Shown here: positions 9,967 to 39,835 of the stretch, one piece after another
Numbering within the stretch: position 1 is the stretch's first letter
Layout: every line of letters begins with the position of its first letter
Assembly: GCA_965204735.1 (NCBI GenBank)
Contig: OZ242008.1
Coordinates: 1,568,001 to 1,632,000 of the forward strand
DNA from: Longimicrobiales bacterium
GTDB lineage: Bacteria; Gemmatimonadota; Gemmatimonadetes; Longimicrobiales; Gaopeijiaceae
Length of the DNA stretch: 64,000 nt
Direction of reading: 5' to 3'
Position numbers and translations under genes: made by a program
Notes under the pieces: model-generated
The model's input: the letters and a program-made list of their open reading frames with translations, nothing else
The model's database searches: none
What the model was told of the DNA's origin: nothing

Positions 9967-9972
9967 TGCTCC

Positions 9973-20833: not shown

Positions 20834-21994
20834 CTACCCGAAGAACGCCCGCAGCCGCTCCACGGCCCGCTCGAGCGTGGCGGTCCGCTTGCAGAAGGCA
20901 AAGCGCACCAAGCCGCGTCCGTCCTCGGGGCGGTCGAAGAAGCACGAGCCCGGAACCGGCGCCACCCCGCACTCCTTGGCCATCCATCGGCTGAAGGCCA
21001 CGTCGTCCATTGCGCTGTGGCCGGAGAACCCGGCCAGGACGTAGTACGCCCCTTGGGGCTTGGCGCACTCGAAGCCCGTCTCGGCCAGCCCTGCGTGGAG
21101 CACGTCCCGGCGCTCGGCGTACTCCCGCTTCATCCCCTCGTAGTACTCCGGTCCCAAGCCGTTAAGCCCGGCGGCGCAGGCCTCCTGCAACGGCGCGGGG
21201 GCGCCGACGGTGAGGAAGTCGTGCACCTTGCGAATCGCGGAGGTCAGGGCGGGCGGCGCCACGATCGTTCCGATCCTCCATCCCGTCACGCTGAAGGTCT
21301 TGGACAGCCCGGAGACGACCACGGTTCGGTCGCGCATCCCCGGCAACGTCGCAAGGGGAACGTGGCGGCCCTCGTAGAGGATGTGCTCGTAGATCTCGTC
21401 GGTCACCGCCAGCACGTCGTGCTCCCGGCACAGCCGCGCGACCGCCTCCAACTCCTCGCCGTCGAAGACTCGGCCCGTCGGGTTGTTGGGCGTGTTGACG
21501 ACGATCGCCCGCGTCCGCTCGGTCACCAAGCCCCGGAGGCGCTCCGGGTCCAGGCGGAAGTCGGGCGGCGCCAGGGTCAGGTGGACGGGCTTGGCGCCGC
21601 AGAGCACGGCGTCGGGACCGTAGTTCTCGTAGAAGGGCTCCAGCACGATCACCTCGTCGCCCGGATCGACGAGCGCCAGCATCACCGCCGCCATGCCCTC
21701 GGTGGCGCCGCAGGTGACCGTGATCTCCCGGTCCTCGTCCACCTCCATCCCGTACCACTCCCGATACTTGCGCGCCAGCGCGGCGCGGAGCGATGGAGTC
21801 CCCCAGGTGACCGCGTACTGGTTCACGTCCTCCTGGATCGCCCGGCAGGCGGCGTCCTTGAGGAGCTGCGGCGCGGGGAAGTCCGGGAAGCCCTGCGCCA
21901 AGTTGACCGCGCCGTGCTCGCGGGCGACCCGGGTCATGTCGCGGATGAGGGACTCGGTGAACGAGCGGGTGCGCCGTGCCGTGCGATGGCTCAT
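20834..21994 (-). CDS. PLP-dependent class I/II aminotransferase
   Basis: VNLAQGFPDF, TCGATE, NTPNNPTG, DEIYEH, SKTFSVTGWRIG; ATG at 21994. Confidence 0.95.
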   Translation of the reverse strand: MSHRTARRTRSFTESLIRDMTRVAREHGAVNLAQGFPDFPAPQLLKDAACRAIQEDVNQYAVTWGTPSLRAALARKYREWYGMEVDEDREITVTCGATEGMAAVMLALVDPGDEVIVLEPFYENYGPDAVLCGAKPVHLTLAPPDFRLDPERLRGLVTERTRAIVVNTPNNPTGRVFDGEELEAVARLCREHDVLAVTDEIYEHILYEGRHVPLATLPGMRDRTVVVSGLSKTFSVTGWRIGTIVAPPALTSAIRKVHDFLTVGAPAPLQEACAAGLNGLGPEYYEGMKREYAERRDVLHAGLAETGFECAKPQGAYYVLAGFSGHSAMDDVAFSRWMAKECGVAPVPGSCFFDRPEDGRGLVRFAFCKRTATLERAVERLRAFFG

Positions 21995-22096
21995 GGGTCG
22001 GGGCCGAGGGGAGGTGGAGATGCGAGGAGGGCGAGAGTCGGATCGTCGATCGACCGCGTTCGAGGGGCCGAGCCGCGCCCGCCCCAATTCCCAGGT

Positions 22097-22149
22097 CCGA
22101 TGTCCCACCTGAGCATGCCGACGTCCCATCTGAGCATAACGTATTGACA
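22097..22149 (+). promoter_or_regulatory. Tandem 20-bp direct repeat (21-bp period) next to a TTGACA box
   Basis: CCGATGTCCCACCTGAGCAT (22097-22116), CCGACGTCCCATCTGAGCAT (22118-22137), TTGACA at 22144-22149; -10 element weak. Confidence 0.5.
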
Positions 22150-22245
22150 GGCTCTCGCGGCGGAAACTCAATTGCCCCACCAAGGCCCGTCCGAAGCCTT
22201 TGGCGCGCCTTGGTCCGGAGCCCTCGCGACCAGAAGGAGGCACCC

Positions 22246-23703
22246 ATTTCCGCGTCGAGACCCACTTACCGCGAAGCCCTGGACCGTCTCGTCAGATGCG
22301 CTGTGGTTCATCAGGGCGCCGAGTCCCTTGCGGACTTGGCAGGCCTGAGCTTCGAGTCGCTGCTTCGCCAGTCGGGCCTTGAAGAGGTGGCCGGGGAGAT
22401 CAAGCTGACGCCCCCTCCTGTCGGGGCTCTCTTCGCCGAGGCCCTGAACGCCGTGGACGACCGCAGGCGCGTGGTGGCGCTCAAGCGGACCTACGCCCGC
22501 GACCCGGAGAAGCTGGAGGAGCTGGGCCGCGAGTTCGGCGTGAGCCGGGAGCGGGCCCGGCAGTTGGAAGTGGGACTCCGCCATATGCTGAAGGAAGAGA
22601 TCGGAGACGCGATGGCGGCGGCGGCCCGATGGCTGCGGCGCTCCGTCGGTTCCGCGGCGGAGACGGAGGAGTTCGACGACGCGATCGCGATGCTCGTGGG
22701 CGACGCGCCCGAGGAGGTCCGTTCCGCCGCCGAGGTCGCCGTGATGCAGGTCGCCGACTACCACCGCCTCGAGTCGGGCGTGGGCGACACCGAGTTTCGC
22801 GAGCTGGTGGACCGCGTCCAGAACATGACGGCCCGCTTCGCCAACGCGGCCGGGGTGGTGGACGAGGAGCAGCTGATGGAGGCGGTGGGCGGAGCGCCGC
22901 GGTGGGAGTTGGTCGTGCGCAACGCCGGGCTGGCGCGCATCGGCGAGTACTTGGCCGTTCGCGACACCCGGCGAGCCAGGGTCTTCGTGGCCCTGGAGAA
23001 GCTGGGCGAGCCCGTCACGAGGCCCTGCTTGGCGAAGGCCGCCGGGCTGGCGGACAACACGACGCTGTCGAGCCTGCTCTCGTCGGATCGGCTCTTCGTG
23101 CGCCTCACCAAGGACAAGTGGGGGCTCCGGGAGTGGACCGACAACCCTTACGAAGGCGTGGTCGCCGAGATCGTGAAGCGCATTGCGAGGGCCGGGGGCG
23201 AGATCGCCGTCGAGGAGCTCCTGGAGGAGATTCCGATGCAGTTCGACGTGTTGCCGGCCACCGTCAGGAACTACCTGGGCACCCGGAAGTTCCAGACCCG
23301 CGACGGCATGGTGCGGGTGGTGCCCTCGCCCGACGCCCCCTCCCAGCCGCTTTCGAAGGCGCGGGACGTGGTGTGGACCCCCGACGGCGAGCCGGCGATC
23401 CATCTCGTGGTCGGCGCCCACCACTTGAAGGGCAACAGCCAGAAGGTGTCGATGGCCGTGGCCCAGCGCTTCGGCGTCGGCCCGGACGGCTCCGCCAAGA
23501 TCCCCTTCGCCGACCCCGCCGGCGTGGACGACGCCTCCTTGATCTGGCGCTCCTACGACCCCAACGGCCCGGAGATGGGCCGCCTCCGGGAGGCCATGAA
23601 GGCCGTCGGCGCCGGCCCCGGCGACCTGGTCACGGTGATCCTCCGCACCGACGGATTGCGAATGGCGCTGGGGGACGCGGGGGCGGTGGGGCGCGACCAC
23701 TAA
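22246..23703 (+). CDS. Sigma70 region-4-like HTH protein with winged-HTH (HARE-HTH / RNAP delta-like) segments
   Basis: KLEELGREFGVSRERARQLE matches the sigma4 HTH pattern; FVRLTKDKWGLREW resembles the HARE-HTH wing. Start inferred at in-frame ATT after AAGGAGG. Confidence 0.7.
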   Translation: MSASRPTYREALDRLVRCAVVHQGAESLADLAGLSFESLLRQSGLEEVAGEIKLTPPPVGALFAEALNAVDDRRRVVALKRTYARDPEKLEELGREFGVSRERARQLEVGLRHMLKEEIGDAMAAAARWLRRSVGSAAETEEFDDAIAMLVGDAPEEVRSAAEVAVMQVADYHRLESGVGDTEFRELVDRVQNMTARFANAAGVVDEEQLMEAVGGAPRWELVVRNAGLARIGEYLAVRDTRRARVFVALEKLGEPVTRPCLAKAAGLADNTTLSSLLSSDRLFVRLTKDKWGLREWTDNPYEGVVAEIVKRIARAGGEIAVEELLEEIPMQFDVLPATVRNYLGTRKFQTRDGMVRVVPSPDAPSQPLSKARDVVWTPDGEPAIHLVVGAHHLKGNSQKVSMAVAQRFGVGPDGSAKIPFADPAGVDDASLIWRSYDPNGPEMGRLREAMKAVGAGPGDLVTVILRTDGLRMALGDAGAVGRDH

Positions 23704-23743
23704 AGTCCATGTCGCTTGGGTTCGCCGCTTGGCGTCTCCCTCT

Positions 23744-23962
23744 TCAGCGTGGCAGCGGACGGATGCCGACGAACTCCTTGGGCTTGTCGTCGTCGAACTG
23801 CGGGCAGTCCAACAAGAACACCGAGCTCGAGCCCGTGGCTTCAAACCCGTAGCCACGTACGAGCTGCGGGTCCAACCACTGACCACAAGACCTGCCGGTT
23901 ATCACTACCCGCCTGTCCTTCGGATACCTGTCCAGTTCCTTGATCAGCTCGCGAACCGTCAT
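23744..23962 (-). CDS. Small hypothetical protein, phage-like N-terminus
   Basis: MTVRELIKELDRYPKDRRVVI; purine-rich GAAAGAAGAGAG upstream of ATG 23962. Confidence 0.6.
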   Translation of the reverse strand: MTVRELIKELDRYPKDRRVVITGRSCGQWLDPQLVRGYGFEATGSSSVFLLDCPQFDDDKPKEFVGIRPLPR

Positions 23963-24086
23963 GATCTCTCTTCTTTCCGGGGGGTGTTGGGAGCCCAACG
24001 ACTCCGCGCTCGCTACCCTGCGGCAACAGGTGTTGATTGATACTGTCGACTAATCTGGCTTGCTGGCAAGATACTCCAGGGGCGTG

Positions 24087-25025
24087 TCAGGCAGCAGTCC
24101 TCGGCGGAGCGCGAAAGACCTCGCGCCAATGCCATTCGACGAACACCGGGGACGGCGCACGGCCCTGCGTGAGCGGTCGGCGAAGCGGCTTTCCGTGCAG
24201 GTCGACCAGCAAGTTGGCCGACCGACTCGTGCCGCCGACGTGAAGAGAGACGAGCACGTGCGTGTTCCCGTCAGAGTGTTCCAACCCGAGCGCCCCGCGG
24301 TCCAGCGCCTTGTGATGAAGGACGCAGAGCGCGAGCCCGTTTGCCACTTCGTCCGGGCCGGCATGGGAATGCCACTTGATGTGGGCCGCCTCCAAGCCGA
24401 AGACCTGCTCGTTCAGCCGAATGTCGTGGCCGCAGATCGCGCATCGTCGCCCGTACTCCCGCAACACCCGCTCCCTGAAAGTTCCGTCGCGGGATTCTCG
24501 AACCCTCTGAGCCTGTCGAGACCACGGAATGTGGTCAGTTCGCAGAAAGCCCCACTCCCGCGGGAGTCCCACGGCATCCAAGATGTCGTCGTGCAGCGAT
24601 GGCGGGAAGTGAGTGGCCAGCAGTCCTTGAGCGACGTTCGCCACGAGGCGGGGATCAGACTGAAGGACCGCGTGGATTCCTTCGGGGAAGCCCCCGCGGA
24701 CGCCACGCTCCCTCATCTCCTTGGACTTCAGGTCTCCGCTTGCGGTGATGGACAGCTTCGAGTCGCCCGGTATGTCCCAGAGGCCGTCCGCACGCAGTCT
24801 GCCGAAGGGGAACTCCGGGTGCGTCGCAACACGTGGCGGGCCGAACTCCCGCAGTAGCTTGGCCAACCGTTCGTCAACATCGGCGTAGGAGACGAGCCTT
24901 TCGCGGCCGTCCGCAACGCGCCCCAGGGCCAGTAGGAGAAGGAGCGGCTTGTGGGGCGCCCGCGTGCCACGCCACTTCCCCGTCCTGATGTTGGAGACGA
25001 GATGGAGGACTTGGTCGCGAGTCAT
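24087..25025 (-). CDS. HNH endonuclease with N-terminal sulfur-binding-like domain (putative phosphorothioate-dependent type IV restriction enzyme)
   Basis: RAPHKPLLLLLALG and FPFGRLRADGLW in the N-terminus; CAICG...EAAHIKWH...NGLALCVLHHKALD HNH core. Confidence 0.85.
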   Translation of the reverse strand: MTRDQVLHLVSNIRTGKWRGTRAPHKPLLLLLALGRVADGRERLVSYADVDERLAKLLREFGPPRVATHPEFPFGRLRADGLWDIPGDSKLSITASGDLKSKEMRERGVRGGFPEGIHAVLQSDPRLVANVAQGLLATHFPPSLHDDILDAVGLPREWGFLRTDHIPWSRQAQRVRESRDGTFRERVLREYGRRCAICGHDIRLNEQVFGLEAAHIKWHSHAGPDEVANGLALCVLHHKALDRGALGLEHSDGNTHVLVSLHVGGTSRSANLLVDLHGKPLRRPLTQGRAPSPVFVEWHWREVFRAPPRTAA

Positions 25026-25410
25026 TTGGCCAACACGAGGGAAAAGGAGGCGGGAGAATACCCGACCAATACTACGCCGTCTCCCGCACTATAGCAAGCG
25101 TTGCGGCTCCTGAACAAGGAGGGCGCTACCGCGACTGTTGTTCGGCATGTTGGTTGCTGCCCAACCGAACCTGCCGTTGCCACAGCGATGCCCTGTGTGT
25201 TTGCCCAGGAAACGCGAGATCAATCGGCATCCCGCCCGCCACTCACATATTGGCTGGGTTGATGAACAATGCAAGTACGCACTGCGCGAACTGTGTGCGC
25301 GCGGCACCGAGTCGCCGCAACACGAAGTCCTGGCAAAGCGGGGCTCACGTCGCCATACTCCAGTCGTAGGTAGGTAGGTAATCCGCGCACTCCAAAACGA
25401 GGAGCCAGGA

Positions 25411-25701
25411 ATGACGAATGACCTGTACGTGGCCGTCTACCGAGCGATCCCGGTACCAAAGCTGTCCGAGGATCCCGACTTTCGCGAGACCCGAGAGTGG
25501 TTGGACGAGAGAGTCGGGACGATGTGGGAGGTCATCCACCACCCCGAGGCCGGGTGGGTTGGAGCGGTCGACGAAACCGGCGAGACACGCTTCGTCGCTC
25601 GATCGGGCGAATGGATCATTGTGGCGCCCACCGGACGAATCGAGGTGAGAAACGAGAACTACGTGCGGGGCTACCTGTCCGCGGTCCGGCACGAATACTA
25701 G
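25411..25701 (+). CDS. Small hypothetical protein
   Basis: GAGGAG and AGGA upstream of ATG; 96 aa with globular composition. Confidence 0.65.
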   Translation: MTNDLYVAVYRAIPVPKLSEDPDFRETREWLDERVGTMWEVIHHPEAGWVGAVDETGETRFVARSGEWIIVAPTGRIEVRNENYVRGYLSAVRHEY

Positions 25702-25790
25702 CGAGCGGCGGCTTATTGGCCAAGCTCAGCGCGGCGCGGGCAAGAGACATGCGGCGGCAAGCATGACCAAGCAGCGCTCGTGCCCCGTCG

Positions 25791-27838
25791 GGGCCTTGAC
25801 AGCGGTGCGACATTCACGCCCTTGGTCACTACCGGAGGACCTGGAGGTCCCACGCGTTTCAGAGTGGAGGCAAGCTGAAGTGACAACAGCAGACTTTGAG
25901 CGGGCACTGAGGAGTTTCGTCGACGACGCCTCGGAGCTGAATGTCCCCGATGGGAGAATTCGGGTGGAGATCCGCAATGAAGTCGTCGAGGCCAACCTGG
26001 ACAACTCGTCAGGGCTCCCGCACGTGATCGAGGATGGGGACTGTGTTCCTGCGGCAAGATGGCTCACAAGGCGCGTCGTGCGTCTCCAGCTGCTTGCCGA
26101 CCGGATTCTCTCCCATGTGGAGGCCGAACCGCTTTTCGTAGACCCTTCGGGCAGGATGTTGGACCGGAGCGGGAGTGTGCCTACGGGTGAGGAGCAGCAG
26201 ATCGACCGCGTCAGCGAGATGCTGTTGCGGTCATTGAAAGGAAGCGACGAGGCCACGACCGTGCACTATCTTACGTCCGGGCCCGGCGGTGGCATGACCA
26301 CATTGATCAACATGACGGCCCGACGCCAAGCTCTGAAGTTCAAGCGGAAGGAAGCCGACTGGTTGCTGTTGCCCATCAGCCTCCGGAAACGGTCTTTTCT
26401 GAACTTCGACGAGATCGTGCTGGTGGAGTTGGCCAATAGACTTCATTTTCACTTGCCGTACTACGACGCCGTCATCGAGCTCACGAAGATGGGCGTGGTG
26501 GTTCCCGCGCTCGACGGATTCGAGGACATGTTGATCGGACGGTCCGTAGGTGGGGCGACATCGGCCCTGGGCCACCTGATTCACGATCTGGATTCACGCG
26601 GCTCACTCTTGGTTGCAGCGCGGAAGGCCCACTTCGAGTATTCCGACTTGGAGACACAGGCGAAGCTGGTGCAACCCCTCTCCGAGCACAGGGTCAAGTA
26701 CGTGCGCACCGAAATCAGCCCGTGGAGTCGTCGGCAGTTCGTGGACTACGCACAGAGGCGGGGGCTGCATGACGGCAGGCCAATCCACGCCGGGGTCGAG
26801 GGCTGCGTGGGCGCTGATCATCCCTTGCTGACGCGACCGGTCATGGTGAGCCGGGTGCTCGACGCTGCCGGGAACGGGCTGTTGGACGGCCTGCTGACGA
26901 AGTGGCGCGACGACCCGGGTGACTACTTTCGACACATCGTGCACTCCATCGTCGCACGGGGGGCGTGGGCGGGGTCGATGTTCACTGTGGATGAGCATCA
27001 CCGATTGCTGGCGAGCATCGCGAAGGAGATGTGGCTGACCTCCACCAATCTGTTTCGTCGCGACTACCTGGAGTCCATCGCCCAGGAGTTCGCGCTCGGA
27101 TGCGGCAAGAATTGGGATGCCATCCGCCAGCTTCGAACGGAAATCACGCAACACCCCCTGATTGCCGCGCAGGGGCAACGTTATGCATTCGTCCATGACG
27201 ACTTCAGGAGACACTACTTGGGCGAGGCGCTCGGGCCTGTCCTTGTGTCGCCGTCCGACGGGCGGGAAGGCCTTGTCGAGTTCATGCACAAGGGCGTGCT
27301 GTCGAGTCGCGCAGCGGACTCGGCGGTGGATGCGGCGAAGCGGCAGGGCGTCGACATGCGGAGCGTTCTGGGGCTACTGCAAGGACTTGCGGTCTGCGCC
27401 CCCCGAATGTCGTACACCTTGGAGAACGCGGGGGCGTTGGCGCTGCGATGCCTGGAGTTGATCTACGACCAAGCTGTGGTCGAGTTGTCGAGTTTCGTAT
27501 TTCCAGAAGATGGACTTATGGGGCGCCGGCTCGAAGCGGTGTCGTTCAGAGAGTGTCGGTTTCACGGCACTTCGCTCAGAGGTGCGCAGATCGGCGGGTG
27601 TCGATTCACGGACTGTACGATGCTCGGCCTGGAGTGGCCTAGAGGGTTCGTCGCGAACGGTGCGGTGATTCGGGGCGGAAGCGTGGCAAGCGTCGTCGTT
27701 GCGGGAGGTGACGGCGTTCGCGTGCCGGCAGATGTCGCCGAGTTGCTTGCGCATGCAGGATTTCGGGTGGAAGCACCGGCTGACAAGATGGGCTCGCCGG
27801 CCGAACGGCCCGGTGGACATCAAGGGCCTTGACAGCGG
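25791..27838. repeat. 15-bp perfect direct repeats bracketing the NTPase gene
   Basis: GGGCCTTGACAGCGG at 25791-25805 and 27824-27838, each followed by YGCG. Confidence 0.75.
25880..27832 (+). CDS. NACHT/STAND-like P-loop NTPase with C-terminal pentapeptide-like repeats; Walker A Lys replaced by Met
   Basis: GGAGG then GTG at 25880; YLTSGPGGGMTT (Walker A-like), VVPALDGFED (Walker B), LLTRPV, YAFVHDDFRRHY, FRECRFHGTSLRGAQIGGCRFTDC. Confidence 0.75.
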   Translation: MTTADFERALRSFVDDASELNVPDGRIRVEIRNEVVEANLDNSSGLPHVIEDGDCVPAARWLTRRVVRLQLLADRILSHVEAEPLFVDPSGRMLDRSGSVPTGEEQQIDRVSEMLLRSLKGSDEATTVHYLTSGPGGGMTTLINMTARRQALKFKRKEADWLLLPISLRKRSFLNFDEIVLVELANRLHFHLPYYDAVIELTKMGVVVPALDGFEDMLIGRSVGGATSALGHLIHDLDSRGSLLVAARKAHFEYSDLETQAKLVQPLSEHRVKYVRTEISPWSRRQFVDYAQRRGLHDGRPIHAGVEGCVGADHPLLTRPVMVSRVLDAAGNGLLDGLLTKWRDDPGDYFRHIVHSIVARGAWAGSMFTVDEHHRLLASIAKEMWLTSTNLFRRDYLESIAQEFALGCGKNWDAIRQLRTEITQHPLIAAQGQRYAFVHDDFRRHYLGEALGPVLVSPSDGREGLVEFMHKGVLSSRAADSAVDAAKRQGVDMRSVLGLLQGLAVCAPRMSYTLENAGALALRCLELIYDQAVVELSSFVFPEDGLMGRRLEAVSFRECRFHGTSLRGAQIGGCRFTDCTMLGLEWPRGFVANGAVIRGGSVASVVVAGGDGVRVPADVAELLAHAGFRVEAPADKMGSPAERPGGHQGP

Positions 27839-27892
27839 CGCGGTGCTTCGAGGTCCATAGCATCTGCCGGAGGCAGTGGAGGACGAGCGGGG

Positions 27893-27921
27893 TTGACTTC
27901 CCGAGTCGCTCCGCTTAAGCT
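27893..27921 (+). promoter_or_regulatory. Putative sigma70 promoter of the DUF262 pair
   Basis: TTGACT-N17-TAAGCT. Confidence 0.55.
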
Positions 27922-27964
27922 GTCTCCAACGTCGCCTGCCTGTCCCGTGATCATGGACTGCGCC

Positions 27965-29050
27965 ATGCTACAAGCTACAGACGTGCCAGATGTTCTGCCG
28001 CCGGATGTGGACGATCCCCGCGATGACGACGAGGAACTTGGAGACACCCTTCGCTACGCGATCACAAGCTACGGGGCGGACATGCTTGTTGACGGCATGG
28101 TTCGACGTTTGAGTAATGGAGACATCTTCGTACCCAGCTTCCAGCGCAACTACGTGTGGAGTCAGAGACAGGCGTCCAGGTTCCTGGAGTCTTTGCTCCT
28201 TGGCCTGCCGGTACCGGGCATCTTCCTGTTCAGGGAACCTCACAGCAGGAAGCTCATGGTCGTTGACGGCCAACAAAGGCTGGCTACGCTGCAGAGATTC
28301 TATGCCGGGGTATTCAATGGCAAGAAGTTCGTTCTCACGGGCGTCTCCGAGGAGCTGTCCGGTCTGGGCTACAATGGCCTCAATGCCAATTACAGGCGCG
28401 AACTCGACGATGCCATCATTCACGCAACAATTTTTGAGCAGCTTGAGCCGGACGATGATCGGAGCTCGGTGTATTCCGTGTTCGAAAGGCTAAACACAGG
28501 CGGGAGCCAGCTTCACCCCCAGGAGATCAGGGCTTGTGTATACCACGGCAGGCTCAACGACTTGTTGTCCAAGCTGGCTGGGGAGGAGTCGTGGAAGGTG
28601 TTGTATCGGTCCAGAAACGACAGAAAGAAGGACGAAGAGATCATACTCAGGTTTCTGGCGCTGCTTTATTCCATGGATTCTTACGAACGCCCCATGAAGC
28701 AGTTCTTGAATGACTTCATGGAGAAGCACATGAACCTGGACGACGAACGGTACAGGGCGTTCGCCGACAGCTTCAGGATGGTGACGAGCACGATCGCAGA
28801 ATATCTCGGGCCGGAAGCACTTAGGCCCCAGAGGAACCTCAATGTCTCGGTTGCCGATGCCGTGATGGTGGGACTAGCACGGCGTCTCCGTCGGGGACCG
28901 ATTTCGGACAAGGAGGCGCTTGTGGAGGCGCACATAGAGCTCATGCGGCGACTTGAAGAGGAAGAGCTGTACAAGTCGGGAACCACGAACAAGGACCGTG
29001 TACATAGGCGAATTCAGATCGCCGTCGCGACGTATGGAGGTGTCGCATGA
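27965..29050 (+). CDS. DUF262 (ParB/Srx-like, GmrS/SspE N-terminal type) domain protein
   Basis: PSFQRNYVWS, ESLLLGLPVP, VVDGQQRL, FERLNTGG; alternative ATG at 27953. Confidence 0.9.
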   Translation: MLQATDVPDVLPPDVDDPRDDDEELGDTLRYAITSYGADMLVDGMVRRLSNGDIFVPSFQRNYVWSQRQASRFLESLLLGLPVPGIFLFREPHSRKLMVVDGQQRLATLQRFYAGVFNGKKFVLTGVSEELSGLGYNGLNANYRRELDDAIIHATIFEQLEPDDDRSSVYSVFERLNTGGSQLHPQEIRACVYHGRLNDLLSKLAGEESWKVLYRSRNDRKKDEEIILRFLALLYSMDSYERPMKQFLNDFMEKHMNLDDERYRAFADSFRMVTSTIAEYLGPEALRPQRNLNVSVADAVMVGLARRLRRGPISDKEALVEAHIELMRRLEEEELYKSGTTNKDRVHRRIQIAVATYGGVA

Positions 29051-30210
29051 CTTTCAGGGACAACCAACGGTTGGAAGTGGCGTTCAACGGGCTGCGCGGG
29101 GAGGCGGAGCATGGAGGGCAAGCCGAAGTGACAGCAGAAGACTTTGATCACGTGCTGGGGAGTTGCGTCGACGATCCACGGGAAGGCGACGACGAGGCCG
29201 GCACGCCCGATCCCGGATTGGTGATGAGCTACGCCGCGAACATGACGGTGGAGTCGTTGGTCGAGCGGCTGGACGGGGGCGACATCTTCATACCGTCCGT
29301 CGGTTCGGGCTGCGTCTGGTCCATGGCGCGGGCGTCCAGGCTCGTGGAGTCGTTGCTGCTCGGCCTCCCGGTGCCGAACATCTACCTGTTCCGAGAACAC
29401 GAGTCGGGCCGGCACATGGTCTTGGACGGCCGGCAGAGGTTGCTGGCCATGGAAGGCTTCCTTCACGGCAGCCTTTGCGGAAGCGACTTCCGCTTGACTG
29501 GCGTCTGCGAGGGGCTCATGGGGAAGAGCTACGCCGACATGCACCGCCTTGAGCAGCGGCAGCTCGACAAGGTGCTGATCACTGTGACGGTTGTGCATCA
29601 ACCGAAGTCCGAGGTCAGCCGAAGCCCGGTCCTGTCGGTGTTCGAGAGGCTGAACAAGGGTACGGGCGGGCTGTCTTCCCACGAGATGCGGGCGGCGGTG
29701 TACGAGGGGTCGCTGAACAGAGTGCTGTCGGAGCTGTCCGCAAGCCCATGCTGGCAGGAGGTCTACGGACGGGAGAACGACAGGATGGCCAGTCAGGAGC
29801 TGATCCTTCGGTTTCTCGCGCTGTTCTGGTCGCTTTCGGCCTACAGACGGCCGATGAAGCACTTTCTCGACACCTTCATGGAAGAACATCGGGACCTCGA
29901 TCGCCGGACGGAACTCCTGTTCCGGAAGTGCTTCGACAGGAGCGTCGCCACCGTCGCCGAAGCGCTTGAGCCGGACGCCCTCAGGCCGGAGGGCAGGATG
30001 AGCGTGCCGCTTGCCGACGCGGTATTGGTCGGCTTGGCACGCAGACGGGAACAGGGACCAATACGAGATCGAGAGGGACTGCGGGCGGCGCACCGGCGGC
30101 TGGTGTCGCGGCTGCGGAAGGAGCATCTGTGCAAGGGCGAAGCGACCGACGCCAGTCGGCTTGAAAAGCGAATCGCCATTGCGCAGGAAGAGTTCGGAGG
30201 CGTCGAGTGA
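29047..30210 (+). CDS. DUF262 paralog with degenerate motifs
   Basis: Colinear with the upstream gene; PSVGSGCVWS replaces FQR, DGRQR replaces DGQQR, FERLNKGT; ATGA overlap. Confidence 0.85.
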   Translation: MTFRDNQRLEVAFNGLRGEAEHGGQAEVTAEDFDHVLGSCVDDPREGDDEAGTPDPGLVMSYAANMTVESLVERLDGGDIFIPSVGSGCVWSMARASRLVESLLLGLPVPNIYLFREHESGRHMVLDGRQRLLAMEGFLHGSLCGSDFRLTGVCEGLMGKSYADMHRLEQRQLDKVLITVTVVHQPKSEVSRSPVLSVFERLNKGTGGLSSHEMRAAVYEGSLNRVLSELSASPCWQEVYGRENDRMASQELILRFLALFWSLSAYRRPMKHFLDTFMEEHRDLDRRTELLFRKCFDRSVATVAEALEPDALRPEGRMSVPLADAVLVGLARRREQGPIRDREGLRAAHRRLVSRLRKEHLCKGEATDASRLEKRIAIAQEEFGGVE

Positions 30211-30253
30211 GCATTCGAGCTGACCAAGAACCAGCACCTACCACGGAGAACCG

Positions 30254-33200
30254 ATGAGACACGACCACGCCAGCCTCCTTCCGACGGGGCTTCTGGCAGC
30301 GGCTGCGCTCCTGCCACTCCCGCTTCTCGCCCAGTCCCCGCCCCAGCCCGCCCCCGCCGACTTCGCCCCCATGACGGCCCGGAGCATCGGGCCGGCGGGC
30401 ATGAGCGGGCGCGTCTCGGACGTGGCCGTCAACCTCCAGGACCCGACGACGATCTACGTGGGCGCGGCCACCGGCGGCGTGTGGCGTTCCCGCGACGGAG
30501 GGCTCACCTGGCGCCCGGTGTTCGACGAGCAGCCGGTGCTGGGGATCGGCGCAGTGGCGGTCTCGGCCTCCAACCCGGACGTGGTGTGGGCGGGAACCGG
30601 GGAAGGGAACCCGCGCAACTCGGCGGGCGTCGGCAACGGCGTCTACCGGAGCCTCGACGGGGGCGACACCTGGCGGCACATGGGGCTGGAACGGTCGGAG
30701 CGCATCCACCGCATCGTCGTGCACCCCGACGACCCGCGCACGGTGTACGTCGGCGCCATGGGACCGGCGTGGAGCGACGGGGAGGAGCGCGGCGTCTACA
30801 AGACCACCGACGGCGGCGAGAGCTGGGAGCGCGTGCTGTACATGGACCAGGGCACGGGGATCGGGGACCTGGTGATGGACCCGGCGAACCCCGACAAGCT
30901 CTTTGCGGCGATGTGGTCGTTTCGGCGCTGGCCGTGGTTCTTCCGTTCGGGCGGATCGGGAAGCGGGCTCTTCGTCACCCACGACGGCGGCGCAAGCTGG
31001 AAGCGCCTGGGGCCGGAGGACGGGCTGCCGCCGGGCGAGCTGGGGCGGATCGGCGTCGCGGTCTCGCGCTCGAACCCGGACGTGGCGTACGCGCTGGTGG
31101 AAGCCGAACGGAGCGAGCTCCTGCGCTCCGACGACGGGGGCGCCCGCTGGCGGACAGTCAGCGACCGACGGGGCATCGCGCCCAGACCCTTCTACTACGC
31201 CGACCTGCGGGTCGACCCGACCAACGAGAACCGGCTCTACAGCCTTCACAGCGCGATTCAGGTGAGCGAGGACGCGGGGCGCACGTTCCGCACGGTGGTG
31301 CCCAGCCAGACGATCCACGGGGACGTGCACGAGCTCTGGATGCACCCCGACGACAGCCGCTTCATGATCCTGGGCGAGGACGGCGGGATCGCCTTCACCT
31401 ACGACCGCGGCGACAACTGGCGCTTCGTCGAGAACTTGCCGCTGGCCCAGTTCTACCATGTCGCCGTGGACATGGACACGCCCTTCAACGTCTACGGCGG
31501 CCTGCAGGACAACGGCTCCTGGTTCGGTCCCATGACGGTGTGGGCCCAGCGGGGGATCATGAACCTGCACTGGACCCGCGTCGGCAGCGGCGACGGCTTC
31601 GCCACCATGACCGACTTCGGCGACGGCCGCTTCGGCTATTCCCTTGCCCAGGGCGGCCGCCTGGTGCGCTTCGACAAGACGACGGGCAACCGACGTGACG
31701 TCACCCCCGTGCACCCGGACGGCGAGACCCTGCGCTTCAGCTGGAACGCGGCGCTCGCCGTCGATCCCTTCGACTCCACCACGATCTACCTGGGCTCCCA
31801 GTTCGTGCACCGCTCGCGGGACCGGGGCGCCTCGTGGGAGATCGTCTCGCCCGACCTGACCACCAACGACCCCGAGAAGCAGCGCCACGCCGAGAGCGGC
31901 GGCCTCACCATCGACGCCTCCGGCGCGGAAGCCCACACGACGATCTTGAGCATCGCCCCCAGTCCCGTGGAGCGGGGTCTGATCTGGGTCGCCACCGACG
32001 ACGGCGCCGTGCAGCTCACGCGCAACGACGGCGCCGACTGGACCAGCGTGGGCGATCGGGTTCCCGGCGTGCCCCTGGCGACCTGGGCGCCCCACGTGGA
32101 GCCGTCCAAGCACGACCCGGCCGCCGCCTACGTGGTCTACGACGACCATCGACGCGGCAACTGGACGCCCTACGCCTACCGCACGGAGGACTACGGACAG
32201 AGCTGGGAGGCGCTGGGCGTGGGAGACGGCGGCGTGGGCCGGGCCGGCGGCATCGGCGTTCACGAAGAGGCCGGCGGCGGCGTGTGGGGCTTCGTCCACG
32301 TGATCGAGGAGGACCCGGTGGAGCCCAACCTGCTCTTCCTCGGCACCGAGTTCGGCCTGTACGTGAGCTTGGACCGGGGCGCGTCGTGGATGGAGTGGCG
32401 GAACGGGCTTCCCCCGGCGCCGGTCCGAGGGCTGGTGGTTCACCCCCGCGACCACGACCTGGTGGTGGCGACCCACGGCCGCGCAGCCTACGTGATCGAC
32501 GACGTGCGTCCCCTCCGGGCGCTGGCCGCCGACCCCTCGGCCGCCGGCGACACGCTGCGGGTCTTCCCGCCCGCTCCCGCCGTCCAGTACGTGGAGGCCG
32601 AGGCCCAGGGCTACCGCTCGACGGGCCACGCCATGTTCATGGGCGACAGAAGACCCTACGGCGCGCTCCTCCACTACTGGATGGGCGACGGATCGCCCGC
32701 CCCAGCCCTGGCCGACTCGACCGCGACCGCCCGAGCCGACGCCCCGGACCGCTCCGACCCCTCGGCAGGCGACGGCGCCCCGGCAGGCAACGGCGCCCAG
32801 GCAGGCAACGGCACCCAGGCAGGCAACGGCACCCCGGACGACTCCAGCCCCTCGGCAAGCGCCCAAGTCACGATCCTGGACGACGCCGGCGAGGTGGTCC
32901 GCACCCTCTCCGGCACCGCCGACCGAGGCCTCAACCGGGTCGTTTGGGACTTGCGCATGGCCCTTCCGAGCGACGACGGCGAAGGCGGCCCCGCGGGTCC
33001 GTGGGTCCTGCCCGGTCGCTACGCCGTTCGCGTCGAGGCGGCAGGCCATCTCGCCGAAGGCAGCGTCCAGGTCGTCGGCGACCCCCGCCTGGAGATCTCC
33101 GTCGCCGACCGCCGAGCGCGCATCGCCGTCCAGCTGGAGGCCGCCCGATGGACGTCGGACGCCGCCCGGGCAAGCGACCGGCTCGACGACGTGATCGAAG

Positions 33201-33562
33201 CCGTGGACCAAGTGCTGGCCTCGCTGCCTGCCGAGGATGAGTCCTCGTCCGCGCTGCGCCAGCAGGGCAGGGAGCTCCTCGACGAGCTGACGGTGCTCGA
33301 CGAGCGTCTCTTCACCGGTCCCGACTGCCAGGGCGGCTGCGGCCGAAACACGGTGGCCGGCCGCGTGCGCGCCCCCCTGCGCAAGCTGAACAGCGCCCTG
33401 GGCGCCCCGACCCCCACCGACCGCTTGGCCATGGCCCACGCCGAAGCCGCCCTGGAGGAGCTCCTGGACGCGGTCGCCGTCGCAATGGCCGGCCCCGTGG
33501 AGGCGTTCCGGCAGGCCCTCGTGGCCGCAGGCTACACGCCGTTGCCGCCGGCGGGGAGCTGA
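30254..33562 (+). CDS. Secreted BNR/Asp-box (sortilin/VPS10-like) beta-propeller glycosyl hydrolase-like protein
   Basis: Signal peptide, RSIGPAGMSGR, many SxDGGxTW Asp-boxes, YGGLQDNG, SPDLTTND, ATHGR. Confidence 0.88.
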   Translation: MRHDHASLLPTGLLAAAALLPLPLLAQSPPQPAPADFAPMTARSIGPAGMSGRVSDVAVNLQDPTTIYVGAATGGVWRSRDGGLTWRPVFDEQPVLGIGAVAVSASNPDVVWAGTGEGNPRNSAGVGNGVYRSLDGGDTWRHMGLERSERIHRIVVHPDDPRTVYVGAMGPAWSDGEERGVYKTTDGGESWERVLYMDQGTGIGDLVMDPANPDKLFAAMWSFRRWPWFFRSGGSGSGLFVTHDGGASWKRLGPEDGLPPGELGRIGVAVSRSNPDVAYALVEAERSELLRSDDGGARWRTVSDRRGIAPRPFYYADLRVDPTNENRLYSLHSAIQVSEDAGRTFRTVVPSQTIHGDVHELWMHPDDSRFMILGEDGGIAFTYDRGDNWRFVENLPLAQFYHVAVDMDTPFNVYGGLQDNGSWFGPMTVWAQRGIMNLHWTRVGSGDGFATMTDFGDGRFGYSLAQGGRLVRFDKTTGNRRDVTPVHPDGETLRFSWNAALAVDPFDSTTIYLGSQFVHRSRDRGASWEIVSPDLTTNDPEKQRHAESGGLTIDASGAEAHTTILSIAPSPVERGLIWVATDDGAVQLTRNDGADWTSVGDRVPGVPLATWAPHVEPSKHDPAAAYVVYDDHRRGNWTPYAYRTEDYGQSWEALGVGDGGVGRAGGIGVHEEAGGGVWGFVHVIEEDPVEPNLLFLGTEFGLYVSLDRGASWMEWRNGLPPAPVRGLVVHPRDHDLVVATHGRAAYVIDDVRPLRALAADPSAAGDTLRVFPPAPAVQYVEAEAQGYRSTGHAMFMGDRRPYGALLHYWMGDGSPAPALADSTATARADAPDRSDPSAGDGAPAGNGAQAGNGTQAGNGTPDDSSPSASAQVTILDDAGEVVRTLSGTADRGLNRVVWDLRMALPSDDGEGGPAGPWVLPGRYAVRVEAAGHLAEGSVQVVGDPRLEISVADRRARIAVQLEAARWTSDAARASDRLDDVIEAVDQVLASLPAEDESSSALRQQGRELLDELTVLDERLFTGPDCQGGCGRNTVAGRVRAPLRKLNSALGAPTPTDRLAMAHAEAALEELLDAVAVAMAGPVEAFRQALVAAGYTPLPPAGS

Positions 33563-33606
33563 GCGAATCCTTCGCACCACGCTTCGGCTTGCCCGGAAGT
33601 AGCGGG

Positions 33607-35550
33607 ATGAAAGCAGACATCCAGCTCAATTCGAATCAGCGCAGGGCCGTGGAGTGGGACGAGGGCCCCATGCTGGTCCTGGCGGGACCTGGGTCGGGGA
33701 AGACCCTTGTACTGACCAGACGCATCGCTCGGTTGATACAAGAGAGTCCTCAGCGGCGCTTCGGAGTGCTCGGATTGACGTTCACGGCACAGGCGGCCGA
33801 CGAGATGCGTGTTCGCGTGGCCCAGATGCTCGGTCGCGAGGACCGCAGAGCCCGCCTGTCCACCTTCCATTCCTTCGCCGCGAGAGTACTGCGCCAGCAC
33901 GGCAGCCACTTGGGCCTGCGTCCGAACTTTCGGCTGCTGGCCGATCCAGACCGTGTTGGAGCACTCTCCAAGGTCGCACGGACCCATGGCATCCGGGAGA
34001 TGCCCGGCAGCGACTACGGTCTGCGTCGCATCCTCGAGACAATCGACCATCTTTACCGAGAGGCTTGCGACTGGGAAGAGGCCGTCGACCGGTTTCCGTT
34101 GCGGGGGTCCGCCAAGGATTGGGCCGCCCCGATCTACTCTGCGTACGTAGACTCTCTGGTGCGCAACAACCACCTCGACGTCGGCGCCCTTCTCGTCTGC
34201 TGCATCCGGCTCTTCCGGAAACGCCCGCAGATCGCCGAGTTCTATCGCAAGGTGTATCCGTTTGCATGCGTGGACGAATACCAAGATACGAATCGGGCGC
34301 AGGACCTGCTCCTTAGGCTCGTTTATGGAGATCAACGATCCAACTTGTTTGTCGTTGCAGACGACGACCAAACGATATTCCAGTGGAACGGCGCCGAGTC
34401 GGGGCGCGTTTGGGATCTGGCGCAGCGCTACCGAATGAAGGTGATTCAGCTGCCGGAAAGCTACCGATGTCCACCCCAAGTAGTCGATGTGGCAAACAGC
34501 CTGATTCGTGGCTACTCGCAACCGCGTGCGCAGCAAATGATCGTCAAGGAGCCCATGGCGGCGTCGCGTGCGCGCAGCCAGCCCGGCACCGTGGTGGCAA
34601 GACGGTTCAGCGATCACGAAGACGAGACGGCTTGGATAGCCCAGGACATTTCGAATCGGTCTTCGAATCCAGGAAGCTGCGTGGTGCTGGCACGGTACGC
34701 GACGCTGGCGAGGACCGCTGCCGAAGCGCTGACCAATGCCGGGGTGGATTCGTACCTGGGCAGCCGAAAGGACGAATTCGTGTCTGCGCGAGTCGGGTTC
34801 GGTCACGCCGCGCTGAAGTTGGCGAACGCGCCCAACGACGGCGGGCAGCTGTCGCGACTGTGCAACGCGTTCGCGGTCCTGACCGGGGAACGGGTTCGCT
34901 CGGGCGAGGCGGAAGCCGCAAGCAGCCTCCAGGGCGGTTCGCTGCTGGGCGGATTCGTCGAGGCGGCCGCCACCGGCGCCGGCGCGTCGGGAAGGTCGAT
35001 CCTGCGGCTTCTGCGGGGGAGTCTTGTCGACGCCTTGGACTACCGGGCCTTCGTAGACGCAGTGTTCCAATGGAAGCCCCACGAAGCAGACTCCGTCGCG
35101 GGAGTCCTGGACACGGCTGAAGAAGAAGAGGAGCGGCGCGTGTGGAGGGCGATCGAGCGGAAGGCCCAGGCGAGACTCGGCACGACGCCGACGCTCGGTC
35201 AACTGATCTACGAATTCGACGTGCGCTCCAAGACGCCCCCGCCAACCGACGAGCAGGTTCAGTGCCTGACGGTCCACGGCGCGAAGGGCAAGGAGTTCAA
35301 GCACGTCTACGTCGTGGGCCTTGCGGAAGGCGTGCTGCCTTCGTACCAGGCGACGAGACTCGACGGCGACTCGGTCGCGGGCCGACGCGCCATGGACGAA
35401 GAACGCAGAATCTGCTTCGTGGCGGTCACCAGAGCCAGAGCGAGTGCCACCTTGACCTACGCCGACACCTACTTCGGTCGGCGGAAGAAGCCCTCGCGGT
35501 TCCTGACGGAGATGGGGGCTGGTCGGCAACTCTGGCGCAGCTTATTGTGA
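33607..35550 (+). CDS. UvrD/Rep superfamily 1 helicase
   Basis: LAGPGSGKT, LTFT, TFHSF, VDEYQD, ADDDQTIFQWNGA, SYRCP, TVHGAKGKEF, EERRICFVAVTRA. Confidence 0.93.
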   Translation: MKADIQLNSNQRRAVEWDEGPMLVLAGPGSGKTLVLTRRIARLIQESPQRRFGVLGLTFTAQAADEMRVRVAQMLGREDRRARLSTFHSFAARVLRQHGSHLGLRPNFRLLADPDRVGALSKVARTHGIREMPGSDYGLRRILETIDHLYREACDWEEAVDRFPLRGSAKDWAAPIYSAYVDSLVRNNHLDVGALLVCCIRLFRKRPQIAEFYRKVYPFACVDEYQDTNRAQDLLLRLVYGDQRSNLFVVADDDQTIFQWNGAESGRVWDLAQRYRMKVIQLPESYRCPPQVVDVANSLIRGYSQPRAQQMIVKEPMAASRARSQPGTVVARRFSDHEDETAWIAQDISNRSSNPGSCVVLARYATLARTAAEALTNAGVDSYLGSRKDEFVSARVGFGHAALKLANAPNDGGQLSRLCNAFAVLTGERVRSGEAEAASSLQGGSLLGGFVEAAATGAGASGRSILRLLRGSLVDALDYRAFVDAVFQWKPHEADSVAGVLDTAEEEEERRVWRAIERKAQARLGTTPTLGQLIYEFDVRSKTPPPTDEQVQCLTVHGAKGKEFKHVYVVGLAEGVLPSYQATRLDGDSVAGRRAMDEERRICFVAVTRARASATLTYADTYFGRRKKPSRFLTEMGAGRQLWRSLL

Positions 35551-35622
35551 TATAGGCGCGAATCGGAAATAATCGGACCTGTTATTCAAGTCAGCGACAA
35601 TAGCAGAGGGAGACCGGATCCA

Positions 35623-36795
35623 GTGGAGCGAGGCGCGACCGGCCAGTACGAGACCACGGTGGCCGCGGGCGAGCGCGTCCGCGCCTTCGTGCCAGCGCCG
35701 CTGCCTCCCCGGCCCCGCCTGGACCTGCGGGGGCCGCTCGAACGGCGGCTGGAGTCCGCAAGCCTCGCGCTCGGTCGGCTGGACAGCGTCTCGGCCGTCC
35801 TCGCCCACGCCGACAACTTGGTCTACTCGTACGTCCGCAAGGAAGCCGTGCTCTCTTCGCAGATCGAGGGGATCCGGTCTTCGCTTTCCGATCTCCTGTT
35901 CTTCGAGAGGGGAGGCGCGGTCCGATTCTCCCGCGACGACGTGGAAGAGGTCGCCACCTGCGTCGCGGCCACCGACCACGGCCTTCGCCGGCTTGCGGGC
36001 GGCCTTCCTCTGTCCAACCGCTTGATCCGGGAAGTGCACGGCGTCCTCTTCTCGCATGAGCGAGGTGCCGGAGCGACCCCCGGCGAGTTTCGGCGCTCCC
36101 AGAACTGGCTCGGCGGCTACAGGCCCGGCGCCGCCGTCTTCGTGCCGCCGCCCCACACCAAGGTGCGGGAGTGCATGGCGGACCTGGAGCGCTTCCTTCA
36201 CGACGATGCGGACGGGCTGCCCAAGCTGGTCAAGGCCGGGCTCGCCCACGTCCAGTTCGAGACCATTCACCCATTTCTGGACGGCAACGGTCGCGTCGGA
36301 CGCCTCCTCGTCACGCTCTTCCTCATCAATGCCGGCGTGCTGCAGCAGCCGCTCTTGTTCCCGAGCCTCTTCCTGAAGCGCCACCGGCAGGAGTACTACA
36401 GGTTGCTCGACCAAGTGCGGCGGACGGGCGACTGGGAGGCGTGGCTGGCGTTCTTCCTCGAAGGAGTGGAATCCACCGCGGAAGGTGCGGTCGCGACCGC
36501 CCAGGAACTCGTTCGGGTTTTTCGGCACGACCAGGAACGAATCGACGCCGAGGCTGGACGCAAGGCGTCGTCGGCGCGGCGGGTGCACGGAGCGCTCCAG
36601 GCGCGGGTCGTCGTTTCTCTCGGCGAAGCGGCGCGCCGCACCGGTCTGACGTTCCAAACGGTCTCGCGGGCAATGGACCTGCTGGTCGACTATGGCATCG
36701 CGCGGGAAGTCACCGGGGGTTCGCGCAACCGTCTGTACGCCTACCAAGAGTACTTGGCAGTCCTCGACAGGGGAGTTGAAGGGCCGCCGGGCTGA
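35623..36795 (+). CDS. Fic family protein (N-terminal inhibitory motif, C-terminal HTH)
   Basis: EAVLSSQIEG, PGEFRRSQNW, HPFLDGNGRVGR. Confidence 0.93.
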   Translation: MERGATGQYETTVAAGERVRAFVPAPLPPRPRLDLRGPLERRLESASLALGRLDSVSAVLAHADNLVYSYVRKEAVLSSQIEGIRSSLSDLLFFERGGAVRFSRDDVEEVATCVAATDHGLRRLAGGLPLSNRLIREVHGVLFSHERGAGATPGEFRRSQNWLGGYRPGAAVFVPPPHTKVRECMADLERFLHDDADGLPKLVKAGLAHVQFETIHPFLDGNGRVGRLLVTLFLINAGVLQQPLLFPSLFLKRHRQEYYRLLDQVRRTGDWEAWLAFFLEGVESTAEGAVATAQELVRVFRHDQERIDAEAGRKASSARRVHGALQARVVVSLGEAARRTGLTFQTVSRAMDLLVDYGIAREVTGGSRNRLYAYQEYLAVLDRGVEGPPG

Positions 36796-36849
36796 ACGCT
36801 TGCCGGACGGGACGACCGACGGAGGACGAGCGAGCCGCCGCTTGTCGAA

Positions 36850-38340: not shown

Positions 38341-38454
38341 CGGTTGTCTTCTCCATGAGGACAGGTCGCTCGCCAGGCAACGACCCCTCAATATATCGCA
38401 CGGCGCCCGCCCCCGTTGAGCCCGATGCGACGCTACAATGGGAGCAAGCGCGAA

Positions 38455-38597
38455 CCTGCCAAAACGGCAGACCTCGGAGCCCCGCCACGACGAAGCCTGC
38501 CAAAATGGCAGGGACCTCGGAGCCCGCCACGACGAAAACCTGCCAAAATGGCAGACATGGGAAGCGACACCCGATGAAGAACCTGCCAAAACGGCAG
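38455..38597. repeat. Four palindromic CCTGCCAAAAYGGCAG repeats at 41-43 bp period
   Basis: Copies at 38455, 38496, 38539 and 38582. Confidence 0.9.
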
Positions 38598-39821: not shown

Positions 39822-39835
39822 AGCCGGGCAGCAGG
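39759..39835 (-). pseudogene. Internally deleted remnant of the ykvI-like gene (3' end fused to 5' end)
   Basis: 39759-39805 is identical to 41563-41609; 39802-39835 matches 42614-42647 with 3 mismatches. Confidence 0.75.

What the first reader, a model, noticed from the sequence alone, without database searches (positions are those of the whole stretch)
22097..30210. Candidate undescribed defence island themed on modified-DNA sensing
Seen: about 8 kb, mostly lower in GC than the flanks, between an aminotransferase and a BNR hydrolase. It encodes a sigma4/HARE-HTH-like protein, an SBD-HNH nuclease, two small phage-like ORFs, a NACHT-like NTPase and two DUF262 paralogs. No methylase, dnd/ssp gene or integrase is visible. 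Established: SBD-HNH enzymes cut phosphorothioated DNA, DUF262 is the NTPase/sensor module of GmrSD and SspE, and STAND NTPases are anti-phage sensors. Inference: this combination matches no named system I know.
Basis: partly seen in the sequence, partly recalled or inferred. Interest (0 to 1): 0.75.

Follow-up and report, generated by a model that had tools for sequence, protein, structure and literature searches.

The report
Disarmed defence hotspot with dead paralogs
This stretch is a swap-in, swap-out cluster of separate anti-virus modules in which this strain lacks the toxic partner genes and carries two enzymes with mutated active-site motifs, so only one nuclease, predicted to cut sulfur-modified DNA, likely still works; it is not one new system.

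Summary
All listed genes are real, and the layout is contiguous in independent samples. It is not one system. It is a genus-level hotspot (23704-30253, GC 0.62 vs 0.72) of independent modules.

(1) SBD-HNH: intact member of the known phosphorothioate-DNA restriction family.
(2) DUF262a: the PD-T4-2 kind, not GmrSD/SspE. Its HEPN partner was deleted here; about 16 codons remain, and sister strains keep the gene.
(3) The NACHT belongs to a conserved NYN+NACHT operon (77 of 80 loci; this scan found the pair before on other DNA). Here NYN is missing and the Walker A lysine is Met.
(4) DUF262b is an old paralog lacking the FQR and DGQQR motifs.
(5) The sigma4 gene is host backbone, not cargo. Downstream GajB lacks GajA.

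New here: the motif-dead DUF262 and NACHT form their own clades (down to 65% and 71% identity). They show relaxed but real purifying selection, and DUF262b appears to sit beside intact HEPN and NACHT in other strains. Slow decay under weak selection is likeliest (11 of 32 DUF262b records are broken); decoy or regulator roles are not excluded. The modified-DNA theme holds only for SBD-HNH.

The parts
22303..23703 (+). Backbone multi-domain DNA-binding protein: sigma4 HTH, winged helices, C-terminal B3/EcoRII-N-like fold; no nuclease domain found. The true start is probably about 20 codons further upstream. Not part of the low-GC insert.
   Evidence: 19 of 19 genomes of genus g71; usual neighbours: aminotransferase, MFS; GC3 0.93; Z 7-8, middling
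23704..30253 (.). Variable low-GC insert (GC 0.618) between the sigma4 gene and the BNR gene; its content differs in each congener
23744..23962 (-). 72-aa ORF, unknown; only weak PHROG hits over its first 23 residues
24087..25025 (-). SBD-HNH phosphorothioate-dependent restriction endonuclease; H25-K26 and F72-P73 sulfur-pocket equivalents and HNH motif intact; same site in G002 and G003
   Evidence: omega 0.06; PMC6224610 passages
25411..25701 (+). 96-aa ORF; homolog found only in G003 (56%) at the same site, among 200 family genomes
25880..27832 (+). Motif-dead NACHT/STAND-pentapeptide protein: Walker A GPGGGMT (relatives DAGEGKT), 10-aa deletion, about 100 aa shorter at the C-terminus; NYN partner absent
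27947..29050 (+). DUF262a, PD-T4-2_A/NsnA-type, motifs FQR and DGQQR intact; orphaned by loss of HEPN
29047..29096 (+). 5' remnant (about 16 codons) of the HEPN_RiboL-PSP gene, fused in frame to DUF262b; sister strains hold 419 more bases here
29112..29181 (+). Segment copied from the NACHT gene's ribosome-binding site and start (57 of 69 bases match 25865-25934; shuffled maximum score 35.5 vs 80)
   Evidence: (D5)
29128..30210 (+). DUF262b, motif-dead paralog (FQR to VGS, DGQQR to DGRQR), member of an old separate clade
30254..33562 (+). BNR/Vps10 beta-propeller protein, backbone flank
33607..35550 (+). Orphan Gabija GajB helicase; gajA, directly upstream in G003 and G008, is missing here, and no full-length match was found in the genome

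Best explanation
The region is a defence hotspot made of independent cassettes, and this strain carries a disarmed version: the NYN, HEPN and GajA partner genes are missing, the NACHT and DUF262b have mutated NTP-binding motifs, and only the SBD-HNH nuclease likely still acts, predicted to cut incoming phosphorothioated DNA. Shown: gene content, the HEPN deletion, the motif changes, and independent assortment of modules. Inferred from families: SBD-HNH binds the backbone sulfur and cleaves nearby, which is safe because no dndC, dndD or DUF4007 gene was found in the genome. In relatives, DUF262+HEPN is PD-T4-2 and NYN+NACHT is a predicted sensor-RNase pair. Inferred: losing the toxic nuclease first removed the cost of each module; the leftover partners are probably still translated in an operon running into the BNR gene, so selection against misfolding and polarity slows their decay without needing catalysis.
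For: Synteny: G001 has NYN+NACHT only; G002 has SBD-HNH, DUF262, HEPN; G003 has SBD-HNH, orf99, an AAA pair, NYN, NACHT, DUF262, HEPN, then gajA-gajB after BNR; G008 (another genus) has only a peptidase at the site. All 7 other genomes with a close DUF262 (of 300 searched) have PF18735 directly downstream (6 over cut-off, 1 partial call under it); G000 has none. Contigs from X13 and X15 hold 419 extra bases at 29096/29112, and X15 holds 3598 other bases in place of the dead NACHT; HEPN P0286 begins like the window's remnant. Walker A Lys is present in 116 of 116 other NACHT homologs; the window, its cluster representative P0148 and P0149 have Met, P0150 has Thr, and one partial protein lacks the region. 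The equivalent Lys is required in bNACHT01 (10.1101/2022.07.19.500537, passage). DGQQR is present in 109 of 112 active-type homologs and 0 of 28 DUF262b-clade records that cover it. Decay: 7 of 32 DUF262b records are truncated or split (two end at the same residue) and 4 of 32 lack a 32-aa core stretch. Constraint is relaxed: change ratio at invariant vs variable columns is 0.32-0.55 among dead copies vs about 0.05-0.18 among intact pairs.
Against: The dead copies are not neutral. Against a simulated neutral ratio near 1.0, observed ratios were 0.55 (p 0.001) and 0.32 (0 of 1000) for DUF262b and 0.46 (p 0.002) and 0.36 (p 0.01) for NACHT; the closest DUF262b pair was not significant (0.78, p 0.33). 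Branch omega was 0.09 and 0.14, not different from background, with omega=1 rejected (these branches include pre-inactivation history). 21 of 32 DUF262b records are full length across 35% divergence. By contig-length proxy, DUF262b rides with intact HEPN (11 of 11 HEPN records) and intact NACHT (13 of 15), so it is not just a by-product of disarming. Some truncations may be sequencing errors or contig ends. Expression is untested.
Confidence: 0.6

Rival explanations
1. The motif-dead DUF262b and NACHT are pseudoenzymes with a job: decoys that soak up phage-encoded inhibitors of the intact sensors, or dampers/spare antitoxins that restrain the HEPN or NYN RNase.
For: Each dead type is one clade on a long stem (DUF262b 100/100, stem 1.0; NACHT 100, stem 0.59, FastTree only). 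Purifying selection persists after the shared motif loss. DUF262b sits directly after an intact-length HEPN in X15/X13. A third DUF262 lost FQR independently and is fused to dead NACHT in P0149, so inactivation recurs at this site.
Against: 11 of 32 DUF262b records are broken or lack a core stretch. Dead and intact NACHT never share a contig length (0 overlaps among 12 dead and 15 intact records), so they look like alternative alleles, leaving no close sensor to protect; the genome's other NACHT is 25% identical. The clade was not found outside this lineage.
Confidence: 0.23
2. The window's remaining genes form a rewired working unit: dead NACHT and the DUF262a/b pair act as sensors or scaffolds feeding SBD-HNH or an effector elsewhere.
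For: The HEPN-less layout is shared by runs of four studies at about 1-2% divergence. DUF262a and GajB keep their motifs and low omega. A single TGA separates NACHT and DUF262a in one frame, and NACHT-DUF262 fusions exist (P0149).
Against: SBD-HNH family enzymes act alone (PMC7461809 passages). No recurrence of the combination outside the genus. Low omega on long branches mostly reflects the time when partners were present.
Confidence: 0.09
3. One reading: a single conserved, undescribed system for sensing modified DNA.
For: SBD-HNH reads a DNA modification; DUF262 is linked to modified DNA in GmrSD, SspE and Dazbog (PMC10952713 passage); the sigma4 protein has a B3/EcoRII-N-like fold.
Against: Modules assort independently; 78 of 80 NACHT loci lack SBD-HNH, HEPN and the sigma4 gene; the sigma4 gene is backbone; two members are motif-dead.
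Confidence: 0.04
4. The odd junctions are assembly errors.
For: The genome appears to be a metagenome assembly and has a 58-nt internal repeat.
Against: Independent contigs reproduce the junctions, and another assembly holds both the same HEPN-DUF262b fusion and the dead NACHT (P0132, P0269).
Confidence: 0.01

Closest known systems
SBD-HNH phosphorothioate-dependent restriction endonucleases (EcoWI, SprMcrA; NCBIfam NF045808)
   Same: Above the curated cut-off; SBD matches solved SprMcrA/ScoMcrA domains (E 5e-14); HK and xP pocket residues and HNH motif present; no dndC or dndD found in the host.
   Different: Phe at the Tyr164 position and Arg at the Ala168 position (both variable per PMC6224610); sequence preference untested.
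PD-T4-2 (DUF262 + PF18735 HEPN; PMC9519451, PMC10952713)
   Same: DUF262a hits PD-T4-2_A (E 2e-54); relatives and sister strains have the HEPN directly downstream.
   Different: HEPN deleted in the window; an extra motif-dead DUF262 follows, which I did not find described.
Bacterial NACHT/NLR-related proteins (bNACHT; 10.1101/2022.07.19.500537)
   Same: STAND NTPase with the DGFEE Walker B signature and C-terminal pentapeptide repeats.
   Different: The family's effector is a separate NYN gene with a four-cysteine insert (77 of 80 loci; no PADLOC 2.0 hit); the window copy lacks NYN and the Walker A lysine.
Gabija (GajA + GajB)
   Same: GajB model hit at 669 bits; complete at this site in G003 and G008.
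GmrSD / BrxU / SspE and Menshen
   Same: Share the DUF262 domain; NsnA is the best-scoring model.
   Different: No DUF1524 nuclease hit; no NsnB/NsnC follows. A Menshen-like operon lies elsewhere in the genome (L037).

Membership tests
SBD-HNH PT-dependent restriction endonuclease | SBD plus HNH architecture above the family cut-off | tested here: met
SBD-HNH PT-dependent restriction endonuclease | Sulfur-pocket residues (H116, R/K117, P165 equivalents) | tested here: met
   H25, K26, P73; definition from PMC6224610 passages
SBD-HNH PT-dependent restriction endonuclease | Host lacks a matching PT modification cluster | tested here: inconclusive
   No dndC or dndD (genome 98% complete; no control over cut-off); DUF4007 search rang in no control either
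SBD-HNH PT-dependent restriction endonuclease | PT-dependent cleavage | not testable with these tools
   needs an assay
PD-T4-2 | Stand-alone DUF262 protein with DGQQR | tested here: met
   DUF262a; not met by DUF262b
PD-T4-2 | Adjacent PF18735 HEPN gene | tested here: not met
   Only about 16 codons remain; none in the genome. Met in G002, G003 and by length in X13/X15.
GmrSD/BrxU/SspE | DUF1524 nuclease fused or adjacent | tested here: not met
   No such Pfam hit; proteins are about 360 aa
Menshen | NsnA followed by NsnB ATPase and NsnC | tested here: not met
   definition from PMC12065111 passages
bNACHT/STAND sensor | NACHT module with Walker B DGxDE/DGFEE | tested here: met
   LDGFED in the window; PF05729 over cut-off in family relatives, not in the window copy
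bNACHT/STAND sensor | Walker A lysine | tested here: not met
   Met139
NYN+NACHT two-gene module | NYN gene directly upstream | tested here: not met
   No NYN or remnant in 25702-25879; met in 77 of 80 relatives
Gabija | gajA adjacent to gajB | tested here: not met
HARE-HTH proteins | PF05066 domain | tested here: inconclusive
   3 of 26 homologs below cut-off, none for the window protein; a generic winged helix is seen

The most novel reading that the evidence does not exclude
This lineage repeatedly turns defence sensors into catalytically dead paralogs (two independent DUF262 inactivations and one NACHT) and keeps them under selection as decoys or dampers: PD-T4-2 here is a three-gene variant, DUF262-HEPN-dead DUF262, and armed and disarmed haplotypes of the hotspot coexist among sister strains.
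Probability: 0.23. Interest if true: 0.7.

Novelty: new variant of a known kind. Interest (0 to 1): 0.4.

Why it matters
It shows how a defence island is taken apart: effector genes go first, and the partners persist as motif-dead proteins. It warns that odd gene combinations in one genome can be debris rather than new systems. If the dead paralogs prove to be decoys, bacteria would have an integrated-decoy strategy made by duplicating and blunting their own sensors, testable with a small PD-T4-2 construct. The intact NYN+NACHT operon of the relatives is the stronger candidate for a new system, but it is broken in this window and was already noted by this scan.

Tried and rejected
Complex prediction of DUF262b with the lineage's HEPN gave no verdict (score 0.00); it is not used either way. 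Scans for DUF262b-clade loci found nothing in metagenome contigs or genome contigs, and no further dead copy turned up in 300 family genomes, so the context of P0002 and P0005 rests on a contig-length proxy. No RNA holder was listed. The single-sequence fold of the sigma4 protein was unusable (pLDDT 39); Foldseek gave no match at E<=0.001; the Atlas hits were under 0.9, leads only. The search of protein representatives never ran. The promoter scan found 0 sites, and terminators were at chance level. No integrase was seen among the scanned proteins and no tRNA lies near the insert; a weak 35-nt inverted repeat (I4, 71%) was taken as chance. Pairwise dS between congeners is near saturation, so it was not used to date transfers. 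Strain SNP counts came from truncated lists (18 in DUF262a, 10 in NACHT, 2 in DUF262b) and are too few to use. A gajA 3' remnant at 33567-33606 is only weakly supported. Recent tandem duplication of DUF262a was rejected: the dead clade is not sister to it (base unresolved). No earlier scan note was found on look-alike stretches or dead DUF262 paralogs.
Full report
Observation. The low-GC part runs 23704-30253 (GC 0.618 vs 0.725 in both flanks). The layout is real: one contig of run X7 covers 21500-30821 with 124 differences, and X4, X9 and X10 contigs cross the DUF262a/b junction without gaps. Close homologs are titled Longimicrobiales, and four holder runs are labelled sponge metagenome, so the host is probably a sponge-associated member of that order (inference).

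A hotspot, not a unit. The aminotransferase, sigma4 gene and BNR gene are syntenic in all three congeners, with different cargo between them. G001 has NYN and NACHT. G002 has SBD-HNH, an unknown ORF, DUF262 and HEPN. G003 has SBD-HNH, orf99, an 87-aa ORF with an AAA ATPase, NYN, NACHT, DUF262 and HEPN, with gajA-gajB after BNR. G008, from another genus, has only a peptidase at the site. The sigma4 gene has host-like codon use (GC3 0.93), occurs in 19 of 19 genomes of genus g71, and usually sits between the aminotransferase and an MFS gene. Its model (pLDDT 86) shows a sigma4 HTH, winged helices and a B3/EcoRII-N-like end at middling Z of 7-8. HARE-HTH is only hinted (3 of 26 homologs).

SBD-HNH. 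It passes NF045808 (295.9 vs 180 bits) and aligns with solved SBD structures. It keeps H25, K26 and P73, matching the pocket described in PMC6224610 (passages). No dndC or dndD was found in the 98% complete genome; the DUF4007 search was uninformative. SBD-HNH genes are rarely near dnd clusters and restrict PT-modified plasmids (PMC7461809 passages). Cleavage of incoming PT-DNA is inferred, not shown. A second family member lies elsewhere in the genome.

DUF262a is a PD-T4-2 half. The best PADLOC models are NsnA and PD-T4-2_A, far above SspE. PD-T4-2 combines DUF262 with PF18735 HEPN and lacks DUF1524 (PMC10952713 passages); its native anti-T4 role is in PMC9519451 (passages). All 7 other genomes with a close DUF262, of 300 searched, have PF18735 next to it (6 over cut-off). 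G000 has none. The first codons after DUF262a match the HEPN start of G003 (43 of 54 bases) and of P0286. Contigs of X13 and X15 carry 419 more bases at 29096/29112, the length of the missing gene. So the window strain lost HEPN by an in-frame deletion.

The NACHT is half of an NYN+NACHT operon. A scan of GTDB confirmed 164 relatives and returned the best 80. Of these, 77 have an NYN gene directly upstream: 75 co-directional and 2 divergent, with 64 full length; 2 lack it and 1 has no flank. The NYN keeps invariant aspartates and a four-cysteine insert. PADLOC 2.0 has no hit. Two literature searches for NYN with NACHT and one for NYN with STAND gave no description of the pair in the passages I read (PMC10853773, PMC8195603 and 10.1101/2022.07.19.500537). 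I saw PMC3710099 only as a listing and could not see the preprint's supplementary operon table. This scan reported the pair before on other genomes. In the window NYN is absent with no remnant, Walker A is GPGGGMT against Lys in 116 of 116 others, 10 residues are deleted and about 100 C-terminal residues are gone. An intact, 25%-identical pair lies elsewhere in G000. Only 1 of the 80 loci has SBD-HNH or HEPN within 5 kb, 2 have DUF262 and 2 the sigma4 gene.

Dead paralogs. DUF262b has orthologs at 90%, 75% and 65% identity that all lack FQR and alter DGQQR: 0 of 28 records covering the motif have DGQQR, against 109 of 112 active-type homologs. They form one clade (100/100) on a long stem that is not sister to DUF262a. 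In this species its start region was copied from the NACHT gene (57 of 69 bases). The dead NACHT likewise has relatives at 90% and 71% with the same lesions, one fused to a third DUF262 that lost FQR independently.

Selection on the dead copies. Among dead copies, family-invariant columns change less than variable ones: 24/102 vs 68/159 and 11/102 vs 54/159 for DUF262b, 20/114 vs 144/380 for NACHT. A neutral simulation gives a ratio near 1.0 (p 0.002 or less), while the nearest DUF262b pair is not significant. Intact pairs are far more constrained (ratio about 0.05-0.18). A codon model of my own gave omega 0.09 and 0.14 on the dead branches, but these include earlier history. Against a lasting role, 7 of 32 DUF262b records are truncated or split and 4 of 32 lack a 32-residue core stretch (the deletion is also seen in X15).

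Haplotypes, by proxy. Matching contig lengths (a proxy, not a map), all 11 records of the two expanded HEPN clusters and 13 of 15 intact-NACHT records share a length with a DUF262b record. Of 12 dead-NACHT records (one unrelated 45-aa member dropped), 9 share a length with DUF262b, 1 with HEPN and none with intact NACHT. X15 shows the armed form directly: 3598 other bases replace the dead NACHT. The HEPN search scored only 50 candidates and I expanded 2 of its 26 clusters, so HEPN absence is shown only for window-like strains. Downstream, gajB is orphaned in the same way.

Mechanism and verdict. Most likely the hotspot gains and loses cassettes. This haplotype dropped the toxic nucleases (loss shown; cost as the cause is inferred) and keeps one self-sufficient restriction enzyme, and the leftover proteins erode slowly because they are probably still translated (inferred; expression untested). 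The bolder reading, that dead paralogs are decoys or dampers, fits their age and their place beside intact HEPN, but not the broken alleles. Two searches for such decoys (listings and abstract starts only) showed no matching report. Verdict: new variant of known kinds, interest 0.4; 0.7 if the decoy reading (probability about 0.23) holds.

Noticed in passing
window 33607-44471: A second patchwork zone: orphan gajB, a SoFic-like gene (35623-36795, PADLOC E 9e-111), another Fic gene (36850-38340), three low-GC ORFs at 40001-41522 (first with a weak CHAP hit) and a HipA-HTH pair (42792-44471), interleaved with backbone MFS and membrane genes.
   Followed up: partly
L036:6841-10047 (G000 C1 about 9840-13050, minus strand): Intact NYN + NACHT pair in the same genome, 25% identical to the window's NACHT; a ready test candidate.
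   Followed up: partly
L037:6803-10783: Menshen-like operon (DUF262, AAA-DUF3696, 320-aa gene) next to a HARE-HTH-Mrr gene; the genome has 8 DUF262 matches in all.
   Followed up: partly
L010:8211-9178 and L009:11056-12009: In genus g1 the NYN gene is inverted (divergent from NACHT), unlike 75 co-directional cases; this decoupling may have preceded NYN loss.
   Followed up: no
P0149, P0275, P0176: Dead NACHT fused in frame to a half-degenerate third DUF262 in sister strains; in the window one TGA (27830-27832) separates NACHT from DUF262a in the same frame.
   Followed up: partly
window 22303-23703; L138-L158: A nuclease-free sigma4-wHTH-B3 protein is conserved (52-74% identity) in several genera of the family and is unexplained; distant longer homologs (frames of 700-1577 aa) exist in genus g6.
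   Followed up: partly
L010:6082-8174: G003 carries an 87-aa ORF plus a 610-aa AAA/OLD-like ATPase in the hotspot; four relatives (29-35%) lie elsewhere in G000.
   Followed up: no
L055-L134: The commonest further neighbours of NYN+NACHT loci look like type I restriction-modification subunits (clusters in 8, 7 and 5 of 80 loci; named from recalled sequence features, not scanned).
   Followed up: no
L136 (G000 C1 670538-671410): Second SBD-HNH family gene above the cut-off.
   Followed up: no
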